Source of the DNA: a virus
Lineage: Duplodnaviria > Heunggongvirae > Uroviricota > Caudoviricetes
DNA: 13,647 bases
IMG/VR virus record: IMGVR_UViG_2671181019_000008
Direction: 5' to 3' (one strand)
The notes below the pieces were generated by a model. It was given only the letters and a program-made list of their open reading frames with translations. It had not been told where the DNA came from and searched no databases. Positions within the stretch are counted from its first letter, which is position 1. Every line of letters starts with the position of its first letter. This document shows, piece by piece, positions 2,503 through 9,821 of this stretch. A program made the translations under genes and the position numbers.

Positions 2503-2670
2503 ATGACCACTATTACCAAAGAACGTATTGAATTGTTCATTAAAAACCCGCTTGAAAACGGGCTTACCCGTGGTGAACAAATGGAACTGGCACGGATTGC
2601 GCTGGCATCGCTGGAAGCAGAGCCGGTTGTGTTCTGGTTTGAAAAATATCAAGAAGGGGCTACGGCATGA
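2503..2670 (+). CDS. Hypothetical small protein (55 aa; below the ORF-track cutoff)
   Basis: SD AAGGAG 6 nt upstream of ATG 2503; stop overlaps the next ATG (ATGA). Carries an [10 protein letters not shown] motif that recurs in the next gene. Confidence 0.4.
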
Positions 2671-3011
2671 CGACTTTTACCAGAGAGCAGTTAATAGCTC
2701 ACGCAGAGGAGACTATTGAAGCACAGAGACTGTGCATACCGGGCACAATCGACCATGACATCATCCGCACATATAAGATGGATATTGCTGTTCTGGAAAT
2801 CGCACTGGTATCGCTGGCAGCAGAGCCAGCCGGTAAATTGCATGAATACAAACCAGTGGGATATCAGCGTCTGGTCGATGAGTTAACCATGCTGGTAAAG
2901 CAGTTAACCTGGCAACTGAGGAAAGCGAAGCCAGACTGCAAATTACCGGATAAGGCGATGAGTTATCTGGAGCGGAACGGACTGATAAGCGTGGAGGATA
3001 TTTTACGATGA
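2667..3011 (+). CDS. Hypothetical protein (114 aa)
   Basis: ORF in the supplied track, coupled to the upstream gene; contains [10 protein letters not shown]. Confidence 0.5.
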
Positions 3012-3091
3012 CCTGGCCTGAAGCATTAACAACGGTAGGAATTGCGATGGCGGTGGCGCTGGTGGTGTATTCGATTTGCCGCTGGGGATAA
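3008..3091 (+). CDS. Possible 27-aa hydrophobic micro-protein
   Basis: ATG 3008 overlaps the upstream stop (ATGA); translation [27 protein letters not shown] has one TM-like segment. Very short, so speculative. Confidence 0.25.
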
Positions 3092-3302
3092 AAACGGTTT
3101 GCGGGAAAAGGAGAGTTAAGTAGAATTGCAGCGGGTGCTTGAGGCTATCTGTCTCAGGCATGAACACCAAAAGGCAGATAGAGAAAAGCCCCAGTTAACA
3201 TTACGCGTCCGGCAAGACGCTTAACATTAATCTGAGGCCATATCTATGCTCTACACACGTAGGTTAGCCTCTTACGTGCCGAAAGGCAAGGAGAAGCAGG
3301 CT

Positions 3303-3458
3303 ATGAAGCAGCAAAAGGCGATGCTAATCGCCCTGATCGTCATCTGTTTAACCGTCATTGTGACGGCACTGGTAACGAGGAAAGACCTCTGCGAGGTACG
3401 AATCCGAACCGGCCAGACGGAGGTCGCTGTCTTCACAGCTTACGAACCTGAGGAGTAA
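3303..3458 (+). CDS. hokD: Hok/Gef-family type I toxin (51 aa), HokD/RelF-like
   Basis: MKQQKAMLIALIVICLTVIVTALVTRKDLCEVRIRTGQTEVAVFTAYEPEE has the Hok/Gef signature (TM helix, LTRK.LCE.R, TEVA.F.AYE) and matches E. coli HokD/RelF as I recall it. SD AAGGAGAAG upstream. Track ORF 3246-3458 is an in-frame upstream extension. Confidence 0.85.
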   Translation: MKQQKAMLIALIVICLTVIVTALVTRKDLCEVRIRTGQTEVAVFTAYEPEE

Positions 3459-3526
3459 GAGACCAGGCGAGGGAGAAATCCCTCGCCACCTCTGATGTGT
3501 CAGGCATCCTCAACGCACCCGCACTT

Positions 3527-3548
3527 AACCCGCTTCGGCGGGTTTTTT
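3527..3548 (+). terminator. Rho-independent terminator after hok; first copy of an exact 23-bp repeat
   Basis: CCCGC-TTCG-GCGGG stem-loop followed by T6. It is preceded by a perfect 9-bp stem GGCGAGGGA-gaaa-TCCCTCGCC at 3466-3487. The 23 bp TAACCCGCTTCGGCGGGTTTTTT (3526-3548) recur exactly at 5361-5383. Confidence 0.75.
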
Positions 3549-3549
3549 A

Positions 3550-3600
3550 TTGGTTGACAAAATTATGAATATGCACCAATATCTTGGTTGACAAAAGTCG
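3550..3600 (+). promoter_or_regulatory. Candidate promoter/operator of the cargo operon with tandem 13-bp direct repeats
   Basis: TTGGTTGACAAAA at 3550-3562 and again at 3584-3596 (34 bp apart); each contains a consensus -35 hexamer TTGACA. The region sits directly upstream of gene A. Confidence 0.5.
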
Positions 3601-3631: not shown

Positions 3632-4225
3632 ATGCAGAACCATCCATTCCCTTGGGAGTTCTTTCCTGAGTTAACAGAGGAGCGTTTAACCATTATAGCT
3701 GAGGAGTTGCTCAGGATACAGGATATTACTCATGAGTTATTGTCATCGCCCTATGATGATAATTACACTCGTGGTGGTTGTACATTTGGGCGTCAGCGGC
3801 AGGCGTTGCTACAAATGTGCGTACGAAAGACATATGACTGGTTAAGACTACTTAATCCTGGCATGGATCTTACGTTTTCAATTGGGAATGTCCCTATTCG
3901 TTTCTTTACTGATGACGCAGATAACCCCAAGAAACGCGGTTTTTTCAAAAGAAATGATGCTGATCGACTCTTTGAGTCAGAGGAGACTACTCCAACTATG
4001 CATCGCTTTGTGGTTGAAAAGCCTGAATTTGAAGGCGAGGGTGGTAGAGTCATTTTTAATGGCTATAACGTGTTTGGTGAGATCGTGTCAACTTGGACAT
4101 ATGGTGCGGACCGTGTTGTTATGCTGAACTCTGTCGATGATGTACCTCCAGCACCGGTACCTATCGAACTAGAACCTATCAGTGCGTCTAAGACTGAGAA
4201 GGAAAAGAAACAAAATAGCAAATAG
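3632..4225 (+). CDS. Hypothetical protein, first gene of the cargo operon (197 aa from ATG 3632; no recognisable motif)
   Basis: Track ORF 3584-4225 begins with TTG inside the promoter repeat; ATG 3632 has SD GGAG 8 nt upstream. Appears less G+C-rich than the backbone (by eye). Confidence 0.6.
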   Translation: MQNHPFPWEFFPELTEERLTIIAEELLRIQDITHELLSSPYDDNYTRGGCTFGRQRQALLQMCVRKTYDWLRLLNPGMDLTFSIGNVPIRFFTDDADNPKKRGFFKRNDADRLFESEETTPTMHRFVVEKPEFEGEGGRVIFNGYNVFGEIVSTWTYGADRVVMLNSVDDVPPAPVPIELEPISASKTEKEKKQNSK

Positions 4226-8270: not shown

Positions 8271-9311
8271 ATGGTTTCTGAAACTGTAACGATTACGTTC
8301 TATAAAATTCAAAAATGTGGTTACTACCGTTACGGTGTTGTAAGCCCTGCATTTGGTGGTTGTGACGAGTTGCTCACAGATCTTGCTTTATGGGCAGAAG
8401 GGAAAAAACTCAAACAGACAAAGACATATGAAGCAAATGATGAGGTTTTACCTGCTTATCTTCTGGATATGAAACGTGCTGGTGACAATGTGGTTTTGTT
8501 GCTCTGGAATGAGGTTCCTTCTACAGATCAAAGTGTTCCATCGGTTCAGGAAGATACAGAATTTGGTACGGACCCAACAGTAATACTTAATTCAATCCAG
8601 AAGGGAAGTATTCCTGGTTTTGCTACTTACTTTTGGTTTATTCCATCCATGGATTTAGTGGCTAGCATCAAGTTTAACCATGCTTTGACGGGACAGAAGG
8701 CGATGCAATGCTATCTCTATCATTTTTTAAAACAGTCATCAAGCCACGTTGTGGCGGAAAGTGTGGAGAAGGAAGATGGCACGCATGAGGTGGTTATCAA
8801 GGGCTATAAAATTAACCCAACAGATGATGTGCTGCCAAAGAAAAAACACTATCCACAGTTCGTAGCTGGTTTAGTAAGAAATCCTGGTAAACATGAAGTT
8901 ATTAGGCAGAATGCTAATATTGTTTCTAAAATTGAAAAGGTTGTTGAACTTGATGTGTCAAAACCTGACGAGTTTAGCCTGTGGCAAAAACTATTGATTA
9001 ATATGAATATTAGCCATCCACAAACTGCAAATACCTCAACAAAAATTAGATATGAACTTTCTCCGAATGTTGATATTGATGACATCGAGGGGATGATTGA
9101 TGATTGGAATAAACATAGCGATACAAACTCTTGTGATTATGGTTTTGTATTTAAAGGAGATCCAACGACATATTGGCTCAGTCGTTCATTAGCACGAACC
9201 AAATTCCACTTGAATTTGGAGCGACAGGACGCCGAGTTTGTGTCCTCGGAATCTCTTCTTTCTGAACTTGTAGGCAAAAGGGAGCTCATATTACGCGAGG
9301 CGGGAATGTAG
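8271..9311 (+). CDS. Hypothetical soluble protein (346 aa), first gene of the AT-rich cargo pair
   Basis: Long ORF, clearly AT-rich by eye (first 60 nt about one-third G+C). No motif I can assign. Sits where Stx phages carry stx, between tR' and the holin. Confidence 0.65.
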   Translation: MVSETVTITFYKIQKCGYYRYGVVSPAFGGCDELLTDLALWAEGKKLKQTKTYEANDEVLPAYLLDMKRAGDNVVLLLWNEVPSTDQSVPSVQEDTEFGTDPTVILNSIQKGSIPGFATYFWFIPSMDLVASIKFNHALTGQKAMQCYLYHFLKQSSSHVVAESVEKEDGTHEVVIKGYKINPTDDVLPKKKHYPQFVAGLVRNPGKHEVIRQNANIVSKIEKVVELDVSKPDEFSLWQKLLINMNISHPQTANTSTKIRYELSPNVDIDDIEGMIDDWNKHSDTNSCDYGFVFKGDPTTYWLSRSLARTKFHLNLERQDAEFVSSESLLSELVGKRELILREAGM

Positions 9312-9821
9312 ATGAAAATCTTAGGTGGAATTTTTCTTATGGTCGTTCTGATTTTTTCTGCCTATTTTGGGAAGAATGTTCCCTTCTCATCCCAGTGGCC
9401 TCTTTATGAGGCCCTGCGAACTACAGCATCCATTATCTTTGCAGTTGTGGGAGCTTGGTTTGCGATAATCTATCCTGAACGATTAAAAAAATCATTTAGA
9501 GGTGGCAGTTCAGCGAGTGAATCTAATGGCAGTGGGATTACAAGGTTATTTACACCAATTGTACATTCTACTGCTATTTTAGCATCAGTTTTAATTATTG
9601 GCGTTGTTGCGCCATTAGTAAAACAGATACCGTTTTTTATAGATCACAAGGACATTTTTAGGGGCGCGTCATATGCCATTTTGGTTTTTTTAACTTTATG
9701 GCAACTGTTGACAGTAATTTATAGTCTCATTGGTCCTGATATGGTTAAAAGACATAACTCGTTCCAAGAGAGAGAGAAAGATGCTGCTAATTCTATATTA
9801 CCTGTCAATAAACGCAAATAA
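9312..9821 (+). CDS. Hypothetical polytopic membrane protein (169 aa, about four TM helices)
   Basis: ATG 9312 abuts the TAG of the preceding gene. Four hydrophobic segments: ILGGIFLMVVLIFSAYF, ASIIFAVVGAWFAIIY, AILASVLIIGVVAPL, ASYAILVFLTLWQLLTVIYSLI. Confidence 0.65.
   Translation: MKILGGIFLMVVLIFSAYFGKNVPFSSQWPLYEALRTTASIIFAVVGAWFAIIYPERLKKSFRGGSSASESNGSGITRLFTPIVHSTAILASVLIIGVVAPLVKQIPFFIDHKDIFRGASYAILVFLTLWQLLTVIYSLIGPDMVKRHNSFQEREKDAANSILPVNKRK

What the first reader, a model, noticed from the sequence alone, without database searches (positions are those of the whole stretch)
3092..3548. Hok-family type I toxin locus with structured leader and 3' fold-back hairpins; antisense Sok-like RNA expected but not located
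The 51-aa product of 3303-3458 is a clear Hok/Gef toxin. Hok mRNAs are normally controlled by an overlapping upstream reading frame (mok), a cis-antisense Sok RNA and 5'/3' fold-back pairing. Here there is an in-frame upstream extension (ATG 3246), a 150-bp structured leader and a 3' perfect 9-bp stem at 3466-3487 before the terminator. I could not confidently place a Sok promoter on the minus strand. In Qin, hokD follows relBE as I recall, but no RelB/RelE-like ORFs precede it here.
Basis: partly seen in the sequence, partly recalled or inferred. Interest (0 to 1): 0.5.

Follow-up and report, generated by a model that had tools for sequence, protein, structure and literature searches.

The report
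Complete prophage hok/mok/sok toxin-antitoxin module

Summary
ORF 3303-3458 is a Hok/Gef toxin (Pfam 1.2e-23), identical in sequence to E. coli HokD. The leader 3133-3308 matches Rfam RF01794 (117 bits, E 1e-26). ATG 3246 starts the in-frame mok reading frame. The 9-bp stem at 3466-3487 is perfect and conserved.

All parts of a canonical hok/mok/sok type I module are present:
- hok promoter, with -10 TAGAAT at 3121-3126
- 5' tac element (3133-3144), which pairs with fbi (3508-3520)
- a metastable 5' hairpin
- anti-SD/ucb and the mok SD
- Sok promoter on the minus strand: -35 TTGCCT (3289-3284), -10 TAACCT (3266-3261)
- Sok RNA, about 3254→3184
- the stem-loop that protects the 3' end of the processed mRNA
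- an intrinsic terminator (3527-3548)

Covariation in 53 diverse hok loci supports these helices.

The locus is 93.6% identical to hokW-sokW of phage 933W/Sp5. That system has been shown to be a functional type I TA, and the same Sok -10 was mutated there. Sequences like it occur in 4939 of 5426 complete E. coli genomes. The K-12 Qin relBE-hokD copy is a truncated derivative.

Verdict: already known, low interest. One side observation is worth follow-up: the Sok 5' recognition tail is hypervariable among loci that encode an identical toxin.

The parts
3099..3126 (+). Putative hok/mok mRNA promoter: -35 TTGCGG (3099-3104), 16-nt spacer, -10 TAGAAT (3121-3126)
   Evidence: Read directly from the sequence. 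The -10 aligns with TACAAT, TATAAT and TATGAT at the same distance from the tac element in the IncY, hokC and R1-type loci. The region differs at one base from 933W, where hokW mRNA is detected in uninduced lysogens (PMC8621323). The start site is inferred, not mapped.
3133..3548 (+). Full-length hok (mok-hok) mRNA, about 416 nt
   Evidence: The 5' end is inferred from the start of the Rfam model and from the conserved GGGUGCUUGAGG found in 69 loci. The 3' end is inferred from the intrinsic terminator. MFE -170 kcal/mol, z -7.6.
3133..3144 (+). tac (translational activator) element, GGGUGCUUGAGG
   Evidence: It pairs with 3508-3520 in the MFE structure. The pairing recurs 45-58 nt after the stop codon in most of 67 unique loci. 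Column 4 covaries: U-A in 27 sequences, C-G in 23.
3151..3161 (+). Partner of tac in the co-transcriptional metastable 5' hairpin (3135-3145 pairs with 3151-3161)
   Evidence: Predicted once fbi is removed. Across 53 sequences 92.5% of cells are paired, against 25-48% when the partner is slid, and 4 pairs show changes on both sides.
3145..3181 (+). 5' hairpin of the closed full-length form (3145-3154 pairs with 3172-3181)
   Evidence: MFE structure. 92.6% paired, with 3 pairs showing compensatory changes (helix 3).
3186..3192 (+). ucb / anti-SD (AAGCCCC). It sequesters the mok SD in the closed form and is an alternative partner of tac in the open form.
   Evidence: 3188-3190 pairs with 3236-3238, and 3192-3194 with 3232-3234, in the MFE. 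The tac/ucb pairing is 98.7% conserved with one compensatory change. The functional role is taken from work on R1 (PMC9841398).
3234..3237 (+). mok Shine-Dalgarno sequence GAGG
   Evidence: It lies 8 nt upstream of ATG 3246. GAGG is the mok SD in R1 (PMC9841398). GAGG is present there in most of the rows of alignment A4 that were printed.
3246..3458 (+). mok reading frame (70 codons, in frame with hok and sharing its stop codon)
   Evidence: ORF list. Same start as the annotated mokW of 933W. The ATG is invariant across five divergent loci.
3184..3254 (-). Sok antisense RNA, about 71 nt: a 5' single-stranded tail (3254-3240) and a long terminator-like stem-loop (3239-3189) followed by UUUUCUCU
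   Evidence: Coordinates transferred from the sokW misc_RNA of 933W. The fold is -29.7 kcal/mol, z -5.3. The stem covaries (helices 4-6). Both ends are inferred.
3261..3289 (-). Sok promoter: -35 TTGCCT (3289-3284), 17-nt spacer, -10 TAACCT (3266-3261)
   Evidence: Read from the sequence. The homologous -10 in Sp5 was changed from TAGGTTAG to CCGGCTCG (primers YO-421/422), and HokW then became toxic (PMC8621323). The -10 and -35 align with TATCCT/TTGCGC of the R1-type locus and TAATCT/TTGACC of the IncY locus.
3288..3293 (+). hok Shine-Dalgarno sequence AAGGAG
   Evidence: It lies 9 nt upstream of ATG 3303. CAAGGAG is conserved in all but a few of the 53 rows of alignment A4.
3303..3458 (+). 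hok toxin gene (51 aa, identical to HokD/RelF)
   Evidence: Pfam PF01848, E 1.2e-23. Identical to the annotated HokD protein. 92% identical to HokW and 43% to R1 Hok.
3441..3444 (+). TACG motif at Tyr47, a candidate TadA A-to-I editing site (A3442) that would recode Tyr to Cys
   Evidence: UACGAA is invariant in all 53 sequences. Editing of K-12 hokD at the aligned Tyr has been reported (PMC5630033). Not tested for this element.
3466..3487 (+). 3' stem-loop (9 bp, GAAA loop). It corresponds to the terminal stem-loop that protects 3'-processed hok mRNA from exonucleases.
   Evidence: Sequence and MFE. 98.4% paired, with 8 of 9 pairs changed on both sides, across 53 sequences (helix 12). In R1, substitutions in the corresponding stem-loop abolish toxicity (PMC9841398).
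3488..3507 (+). dcb-like region, which pairs with the mok start region (3246-3264) in the closed full-length fold
   Evidence: MFE helices 3246-3250/3503-3507, 3253-3257/3496-3500 and 3261-3264/3488-3491. Support across the family is weaker, at 54-71% paired (helices 7-9).
3508..3520 (+). fbi (fold-back inhibition) element, CCUCAA-C-GCACCC
   Evidence: It forms 12 bp with tac, with C3514 bulged. Duplex energy is -21.5 kcal/mol, and 1 of 200 shuffled 3' UTRs did as well. Covariation was seen.
3527..3548 (+). Intrinsic terminator of the hok mRNA
   Evidence: Terminator scan: 7 pairs, TTCG loop, T-run. It is absent from the 933W copy, which diverges from window 3531 onward.

Best explanation
Window 3099-3548 is an intact hok/mok/sok type I toxin-antitoxin module of the hokW-sokW (full-length hokD) subgroup. 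It sits in the early-right (nin-like) region of a lambdoid E. coli prophage.

Proposed mechanism, by analogy with plasmid R1 and Sp5:
1. A weak constitutive promoter makes a stable mRNA of about 416 nt.
2. While the mRNA is being made, its 5' tac element is held in a metastable hairpin.
3. In the finished mRNA, tac pairs with fbi near the 3' end. This locks a closed fold in which the mok SD is paired with the ucb/anti-SD, so neither ribosomes nor Sok can bind.
4. Slow 3' exonucleolytic trimming removes fbi and stops at the 9-bp stem-loop.
5. The 5' end refolds and the mok translation start opens.
6. The short-lived antisense Sok RNA, made from the minus strand, binds through its 5' tail over the mok start. 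This blocks mok and, through translational coupling, hok, and marks the duplex for RNase III.
7. If Sok synthesis stops, for example on prophage induction or loss, the stored mRNA is translated and the 51-aa Hok peptide damages the inner membrane.
For: Shown here:
- Toxin family and identity to HokD.
- Full-length Rfam match to the leader.
- 93.6% nucleotide identity to the 933W locus, which has mokW, hokW and sokW annotated.
- A 12-bp tac-fbi pairing in the MFE structure, z -7.6.
- The same end-pairing at a constant distance in most of 67 unique loci, with compensatory changes.
- On 53 sequences, 83% of cells are paired against about 44% when partners are slid. 26 pairs show changes on both sides.
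- The two alternative partners of tac are also conserved.
- The Sok promoter hexamers and stem-loop are conserved.

From the literature:
- HokW is toxic, sokW neutralises it, and mutating the homologous -10 abolishes protection. sokW disappears and HokW appears on RecA-dependent induction (PMC8621323).
- The tac/fbi/ucb/dcb model and the protective 3' stem-loop were established for R1 (PMC9841398).
- HokD is toxic when expressed (bioRxiv 10.1101/2025.08.07.668861).
Against: - There are no expression data for this particular element. Transcript ends, 3' processing, mok-hok coupling and Sok turnover are inferred by homology.
- The Sok -10 (TAACCT) and the hok -35 are poor consensus matches, and the generic scan does not report them.
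- Thermodynamic folding of 3'-truncated RNA gave the metastable 5' hairpin rather than the published open tac/ucb form. Predicted accessibility of the mok SD and AUG did not rise on truncation.
- The mok-start/dcb helices are only 54-71% paired across the family.
- According to the literature summarised, chromosomal hok loci of E. coli did not mediate post-segregational killing. An intact sequence therefore does not prove activity.
Confidence: 0.9

Rival explanations
1. The module is a decayed, non-functional chromosomal relic, like the K-12 hokA/C/D/E loci: transcribed at most, but unable to kill.
For: Chromosomal hok loci tested in E. coli did not mediate post-segregational killing and were considered inactive (summarised in bioRxiv 10.1101/2025.08.07.668861, and PMC5630033). 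The K-12 Qin copy is truncated at window 3289.
Against: Every regulatory element is intact here, with no IS element and no truncation. The closely related Sp5 copy is functional. Among 78 phage-contig copies the hok coding sequence is almost invariant, with a pairwise difference of 0.007, which argues for purifying selection.
Confidence: 0.08
2. Biological role A, a lysis helper. In the lysogen Sok holds Hok off. On induction, rightward early transcription runs through the locus against the Sok promoter, or Sok synthesis otherwise stops. Hok is then made and permeabilises the membrane ahead of holin and endolysin, raising phage release.
For: For Sp5, deleting hokW-sokW delayed growth arrest by about 40 min and halved phage release. 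sokW vanished and HokW appeared after mitomycin C in a RecA-dependent way, about 1 h before endolysin (PMC8621323). In the window the module lies between the early-region genes and DUF968-RusA-Q, on the same strand as all of them, so early read-through is plausible. That last step is inference.
Against: In 933W the locus sits elsewhere, next to attR, so a position-dependent trigger is unproven. The effect size reported was two-fold. Nothing was tested for this phage.
Confidence: 0.45
3. Biological role B, an addiction or exclusion module. It stabilises the prophage by killing cells that lose it, or aborts infection by other phages that shut off host transcription. This is how R1 hok/sok stabilises plasmids and reduces T4 plating.
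For: hok genes are about four-fold enriched in prophages. R1 hok/sok mediates post-segregational killing and inhibits T4 (cited in PMC8621323). The unstable-antisense, stable-mRNA design fits any trigger that stops transcription.
Against: There is no direct test for prophage copies. Chromosomal loci failed post-segregational killing assays. The survey found no enrichment of hok near defence systems.
Confidence: 0.35

Closest known systems
hokW-mokW-sokW of Stx2 phage 933W / Sakai prophage Sp5
   Same: 93.6% nucleotide identity over window 3092-3530. Same promoter region, tac, mok start, Sok promoter hexamers, Sok stem-loop with its extra GCGUC/GACGC hairpin, 3' stem-loop and fbi. It has been shown experimentally to be a type I TA.
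   Different: - The toxin C-terminus differs (FTAYEPEE here, FVDYESEK in HokW; 92% identity).
- 6 of 15 bases differ in the Sok 5' tail.
- The 933W copy diverges straight after fbi and lacks the window's terminator.
- It lies near attR rather than in the early-right operon.
hokD (relF) of the Qin cryptic prophage, E. coli K-12
   Same: Identical 51-aa protein. The same 3' UTR, fbi and terminator, at about 98% identity over window 3289-3547. A similar downstream neighbourhood, with DUF968 and Q antiterminator genes.
   Different: In K-12, relB-relE replaces everything upstream of window 3289. That copy therefore has no hok promoter, tac, ucb, mok start, Sok -10 or Sok RNA. The window carries the complete ancestral-type module and has no relBE.
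hok/sok (parB) of plasmid R1
   Same: Same architecture and regulatory logic: tac, fbi, ucb, dcb, mok, Sok promoter position and protective 3' stem-loop all align. Compensatory U-A to C-G changes link the two subgroups.
   Different: Only 43% protein identity. R1 has a longer insertion in the 5' hairpin loop and lacks the roughly 18-nt extra hairpin in the Sok/target stem. It is plasmid-borne, with a demonstrated post-segregational killing role.
hokC/mokC/sokC (gef) of the E. coli chromosome
   Same: 82% protein identity and the same leader layout.
   Different: It lacks the extra hairpin in the Sok stem. It has a -10 variant with a 1-nt deletion and a -35 of TTGACC. In the example fetched, an IS4-family transposase follows the gene. 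It lies in the core chromosome rather than a prophage.

Membership tests
[quoted passage not shown] | Small (about 50 aa) Hok/Gef membrane toxin | tested here: met
   PF01848, E 1.2e-23, 82.9 bits against a cutoff of 22, covering the whole 42-position profile. The invariant residues shared with R1 Hok include T25, R26, K27, L29, C30 and E31.
[quoted passage not shown] | Overlapping upstream mok reading frame with its own SD | tested here: met
   ATG 3246 is in frame with hok, with GAGG 8 nt upstream. Same start as the annotated mokW. The ATG is invariant in five divergent loci. Translational coupling itself is not testable with these tools.
[quoted passage not shown] | Cis-encoded antisense Sok RNA with its own promoter, complementary to the mok translation initiation region | tested here: met
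   The promoter hexamers, a 5' tail covering AUG 3246 and a terminator-like stem-loop are all present. They are homologous to the annotated sokW, whose -10 has been validated by mutation. Actual transcription in this element is not testable here.
[quoted passage not shown] | 5'-3' end pairing (tac-fbi) that closes the full-length mRNA | tested here: met
   12 bp in the MFE structure. Conserved in position and compensated in sequence across loci.
[quoted passage not shown] | Mutually exclusive alternative partners of tac (metastable hairpin; tac/ucb stem) that allow refolding | tested here: met
   92.5% and 98.7% of cells are paired, against 24-66% when partners are slid, with compensatory changes. 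The thermodynamic fold of the truncated RNA gives the metastable hairpin, not the open form, so the switch itself remains inferred.
[quoted passage not shown] | Stem-loop downstream of hok that forms the 3' end of the processed mRNA | tested here: met
   The 9-bp stem 3466-3487 has 8 of 9 pairs with changes on both sides and is 98.4% paired. Its role is taken from R1 mutagenesis.
[quoted passage not shown] | Match to the curated RNA family model of the locus | tested here: met
   RF01794, 117.1 bits against a gathering score of 59, model positions 1-157 of 157. The match is on the hok-sense strand.
[quoted passage not shown] | Toxicity of Hok, neutralisation by Sok, and 3' processing of the mRNA | not testable with these tools
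   Toxicity is reported for the identical HokD protein. Toxicity and neutralisation are reported for the 92%-identical HokW/sokW pair. Neither was measured for this element.
relBE-hokD operon of Qin (K-12 arrangement) | hokD immediately downstream of relB-relE, with no mok start and no sok | tested here: not met
   No RelB/RelE ORFs precede hok. The upstream ORFs are phage proteins of unknown function (phrog_660). The complete leader is present, whereas the K-12 type shares only 3289-3547.

The most novel reading that the evidence does not exclude
Among lambdoid prophage hok/sok modules that encode exactly the same toxin, the roughly 15-nt Sok 5' tail and its target over the mok start (3240-3254) exist as ten or more discrete alleles, while the flanking sequence is nearly identical. 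The most novel reading not excluded is this: the alleles are maintained specificity types, like immunity types. They would keep the several hok/sok copies in one genome from cross-silencing each other, or stop a resident prophage's Sok from disarming an incoming phage's Hok.
Probability: 0.3. Interest if true: 0.45.

Novelty: already known. Interest (0 to 1): 0.12.

Why it matters
As a finding it mainly matters for annotation. NCBI-style annotation labels only 'hokD' here. The mok frame, the Sok RNA and the regulatory RNA elements go unannotated even though the module is complete.

It also shows that the K-12 textbook hokD is a truncated remnant of a cassette that is intact and extremely common in E. 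coli prophages. Matches occur in 4939 of 5426 complete genomes, with a median of 2 and up to 9 places per genome.

The only part with research value is the hypervariable Sok recognition tail. It makes the question of cross-talk or orthogonality between co-resident type I antitoxins directly testable.

Tried and rejected
1. Generic sigma-70 scan. It found neither Phok nor Psok. Its only hit, at 3221-3250 on the plus strand, lies inside the Sok stem and is not conserved as a promoter, so I rejected it. I used homology-based placement instead.

2. Folding of 3'-truncated transcripts ending at 3507, 3500 and 3490, with pair-probability accessibility. This reproduces release of tac into a 5' hairpin. 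It does not reproduce the published open tac/ucb conformation or increased mok SD accessibility. I therefore treat the open state as inferred from R1 and from conservation, not from energy.

3. Whether Sok-tail alleles are compensated in the dcb partner. They are not: dcb is nearly constant. The variable bases lie between conserved pairing anchors, so covariation cannot distinguish selection from relaxed constraint.

4. Whether co-resident copies always differ in the tail. Three genomes have distinct tails and one has identical tails. The sample is too small and the result is undecided.

5. Pfam on the neighbouring ORFs (2667-3011, 3008-3091, 3632-4225) gave nothing. PHROGs gave only families of unknown function.

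6. A relBE-linked reading was rejected.

7. I considered treating the plus-strand Rfam 'sok' hit as evidence for Sok's strand and rejected it. The model ends at the hok AUG and describes the sense leader.

Full report
**Observation**

- ORF 3303-3458 encodes a 51-aa peptide. It matches Pfam HOK_GEF over the whole profile, at E 1.2e-23 and 82.9 bits against a cutoff of 22.
- Its sequence is identical to the protein annotated HokD (WP_000813254.1) in E. coli genomes.
- An in-frame ATG at 3246 opens a 70-codon frame that ends at the same stop.
- The stem GGCGAGGGA / GAAA / TCCCTCGCC at 3466-3487 is perfect.
- A canonical intrinsic terminator follows at 3527-3548.
- Rfam RF01794 matches 3133-3308 end to end, at 117 bits against a gathering score of 59, E 1.2e-26.
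- The inferred transcript 3133-3548 folds at -170 kcal/mol against -126 +/- 5.8 for shuffles, z = -7.6.

None of this can be chance.

**What it is**

The 457-base stretch is 93.6% identical to the region of phage 933W, and of VT2-Sakai/Sp5, that is annotated mokW, hokW and 'SokW antisense RNA'. It is 95-99% identical to copies in many lambdoid phages and prophages. It matches 4939 of 5426 complete E. coli genomes, with a median of two and up to nine places per genome.

The rest of the window is a lambdoid early-right region. Small ORFs of unknown function come first, then a DUF968/HNH-like gene, RusA and the Q antiterminator. The lysis genes annotated downstream in matching phages and prophages follow.

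**Anatomy on the plus strand**

- *Promoter.* A -10 TAGAAT (3121-3126) sits six bases before GGGUGCUUGAGG. In the IncY, hokC and R1-type loci, TACAAT, TATAAT and TATGAT occupy the same position. TTGCGG (3099-3104) is a plausible -35.
- *End pairing.* The 5'-terminal 12 nt (tac, 3133-3144) pair in the MFE structure with CCUCAA-C-GCACCC (fbi, 3508-3520).
- *Closed fold.* In the same fold, 3145-3154 pairs with 3172-3181. The mok SD GAGG (3234-3237) is held by GCCCC of 3188-3192 (ucb/anti-SD). The mok start region 3246-3264 pairs with 3488-3507 (dcb-like).
- *Coding and 3' elements.* The hok SD AAGGAG is at 3288-3293, and hok is 3303-3458. The 9-bp stem-loop lies between the stop codon and the dcb/fbi block.

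**Locating Sok**

Transferring the 933W sokW coordinates through the alignment gives window 3254→3184 on the minus strand.

Upstream on that strand lie TTGCCT (3289-3284), a 17-nt spacer and TAACCT (3266-3261). In Sp5, primers YO-421/422 changed the homologous TAGGTTAG to CCGGCTCG. The resulting 'pro-less' construct became toxic and was partly rescued by sokW supplied in trans (PMC8621323).

The -10 matches the consensus at only 3 of 6 positions.

The predicted Sok RNA has an unpaired 5' tail of about 15 nt, complementary to the mok AUG. A long stem-loop and UUUUCUCU follow, at -29.7 kcal/mol, z -5.3. The promoter hexamers align with TATCCT/TTGCGC of the R1-type locus and TAATCT/TTGACC of the IncY locus.

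**Independent test of the RNA structure**

I collected 79 hok loci from species-representative genomes.
- The tac motif lies about 145-200 nt upstream of hok in 69 of the loci held.
- In most of 67 unique loci, the best duplex between the 5' 13-mer and the 3' UTR falls 45-58 nt after the stop codon.
- Compensatory changes are evident: GGGUGC/GCACCC against GGGCGC/GCGCCC, GAGG/CCUC against GAGA/UCUC, and CUUG/CAAG against CCUG/CAGG.

On an alignment of 53 unique full-length mRNAs, the window's helices behave as follows:

| Structure tested | Cells paired | Paired when partner slid | Compensatory evidence |
|---|---|---|---|
| All window helices | 83% | about 44% | 26 pairs changed on both sides; 0 of 500 shuffles reach the observed values on four of the five measures (20 of 500 on the count of further pair types) |
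| 9-bp stem 3466-3487 | 98.4% | – | 8 of 9 pairs compensatory |
| tac column 4 with fbi | – | – | U-A in 27 sequences, C-G in 23 |
| Metastable 5' hairpin | 92.5% | 25-48% | 4 pairs changed on both sides |
| tac/ucb stem | 98.7% | 24-66% | 1 compensatory change |

Three mutually exclusive partners for one element is the signature described for the hok mRNA family (PMC9841398).

**Mechanism**

Steps shown here at sequence or structure level:
- all elements are present and conserved
- the closed end-paired fold forms
- alternative tac partners exist
- Sok is complementary to the mok start

Steps taken from experiments on relatives:
- The full-length mRNA is inert. 3' trimming yields a translatable, Sok-sensitive form. 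The last stem-loop protects that form from 3'-5' exonucleases. mok translation is needed for hok (R1).
- HokW is toxic and localises to the inner membrane. sokW neutralises it, partly through RNase III and Hfq. sokW vanishes and HokW appears on RecA-dependent induction (Sp5).

Steps inferred for this element: the transcript ends, the processing, the coupling and the trigger.

**Relation to K-12 hokD**

K-12-type genomes carry relB-relE-hokD. Their similarity to the window begins only at 3289. They therefore lack the hok promoter, tac, ucb, the mok start, the Sok -10 and Sok itself, although fbi and the terminator remain (rows L003 and L015). The window has the complete module and no relBE.

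**Biological role**

The best-supported role for a prophage copy is the one shown for Sp5, where Hok production on induction advances growth arrest and doubles phage release. Here the module lies in the rightward early operon, on the same strand as the flanking genes. Read-through that opposes the Sok promoter is therefore a plausible trigger, but this is my inference. Addiction and exclusion roles, as for R1, are not excluded. Hok genes are about four-fold enriched in prophages.

**Novelty**

This is a known system in a known context, and I score it low.

One observation may deserve follow-up. Among 77 full-length IMG/VR loci that encode a 100% identical Hok, mean pairwise nucleotide difference varies sharply by region:
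- hok coding sequence: 0.007
- Psok / hok-SD block: 0.029
- Sok 5' tail and target (3240-3254): 0.326, with ten or more discrete alleles

The dcb partner is nearly constant. This could be relaxed constraint, or selection for distinct Sok specificities. Co-resident copies had distinct tails in three genomes and identical tails in one, so the question is undecided.

**Limits**

- No expression data exist for this element.
- Energy-based folding of truncated RNA did not reproduce the open conformation.
- The mok-start/dcb helices are only moderately conserved.
- The Rfam 'sok' model matches the sense strand and says nothing about Sok's own strand.

Noticed in passing
window 3238-3260: The Sok 5' tail and mok-start segment is a sharp hot spot of variation. 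Among 63 unique sequences from loci that encode an identical Hok protein, mean pairwise difference is 0.326 here against 0.007 in the hok coding sequence, with ten or more discrete alleles. The pairing partner at 3486-3507 is nearly constant. Co-resident copies were distinct in 3 genomes and identical in 1.
   Followed up: partly
window 3440-3446 (TACG at 3441-3444): UUACGAA around Tyr47 is invariant in all 53 hok mRNAs aligned and carries the TadA motif TACG. TadA-dependent A-to-I editing that recodes the aligned Tyr to Cys is reported for K-12 hokC, hokD and hokE (PMC5630033). A3442 is therefore a likely editing site that would add a second cysteine partner.
   Followed up: partly
window 3008-3091: A 27-aa hydrophobic ORF ([27 protein letters not shown]). 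Its ATG overlaps the stop of the upstream ORF 2667-3011 (ATGA). The frame and stop are kept in three nucleotide variants. One variant has 4 synonymous and 1 non-synonymous change, all at third codon positions. The 933W variant has 2 synonymous and 10 non-synonymous changes. It is not annotated in the records examined and has no Pfam hit.
   Followed up: partly
window 3550-3562 and 3584-3596: A perfect 13-bp direct repeat TTGGTTGACAAAA, 34 bp apart start to start, immediately after the hok terminator and upstream of ORF 3632-4225 (phrog_5786, unknown function). Each copy contains TTGACA, so these may be tandem promoters or operator sites.
   Followed up: no
window 3133-3308 (+): Rfam RF01794, named 'sok antitoxin', matches the hok-sense strand and ends at the hok start codon. 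As built, the model describes the hok/mok leader rather than the antisense Sok RNA. Strand calls taken from this family would be misleading.
   Followed up: partly
window 3204-3221: An extra hairpin of about 18 nt (GCGUC-CGGCAAG-GACGC) is inserted at the tip of the Sok/target stem relative to the Rfam consensus. It is present in only 15 of 53 aligned loci, all hokD/hokW-type. It lengthens the Sok terminator stem.
   Followed up: partly
window 3531 onward; L001 3283 onward: The 933W/Sp5 copy loses similarity to the window a few bases after fbi and lacks the window's terminator. It also sits near attR rather than in the early-right operon. The module seems to move as a cassette, with a recombination breakpoint right after fbi.
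   Followed up: partly
window 8271-9821: Two ORFs just downstream of the Q antiterminator gene (346 aa, phrog_24371; 169 aa, phrog_37654), both of unknown function. They occupy the post-Q position where Stx phages carry stx (my own knowledge), so they may be cargo (moron) genes.
   Followed up: no
hits H1; loci L016, L026, L033, L080: Near-identical E. coli-type hok loci appear in records labelled Actinobacillus phage, Veillonella, Acinetobacter, Xanthomonas and Streptomyces. Most are very short contigs or metagenome bins. Contamination or mislabelling is more likely than true hosts.
   Followed up: no
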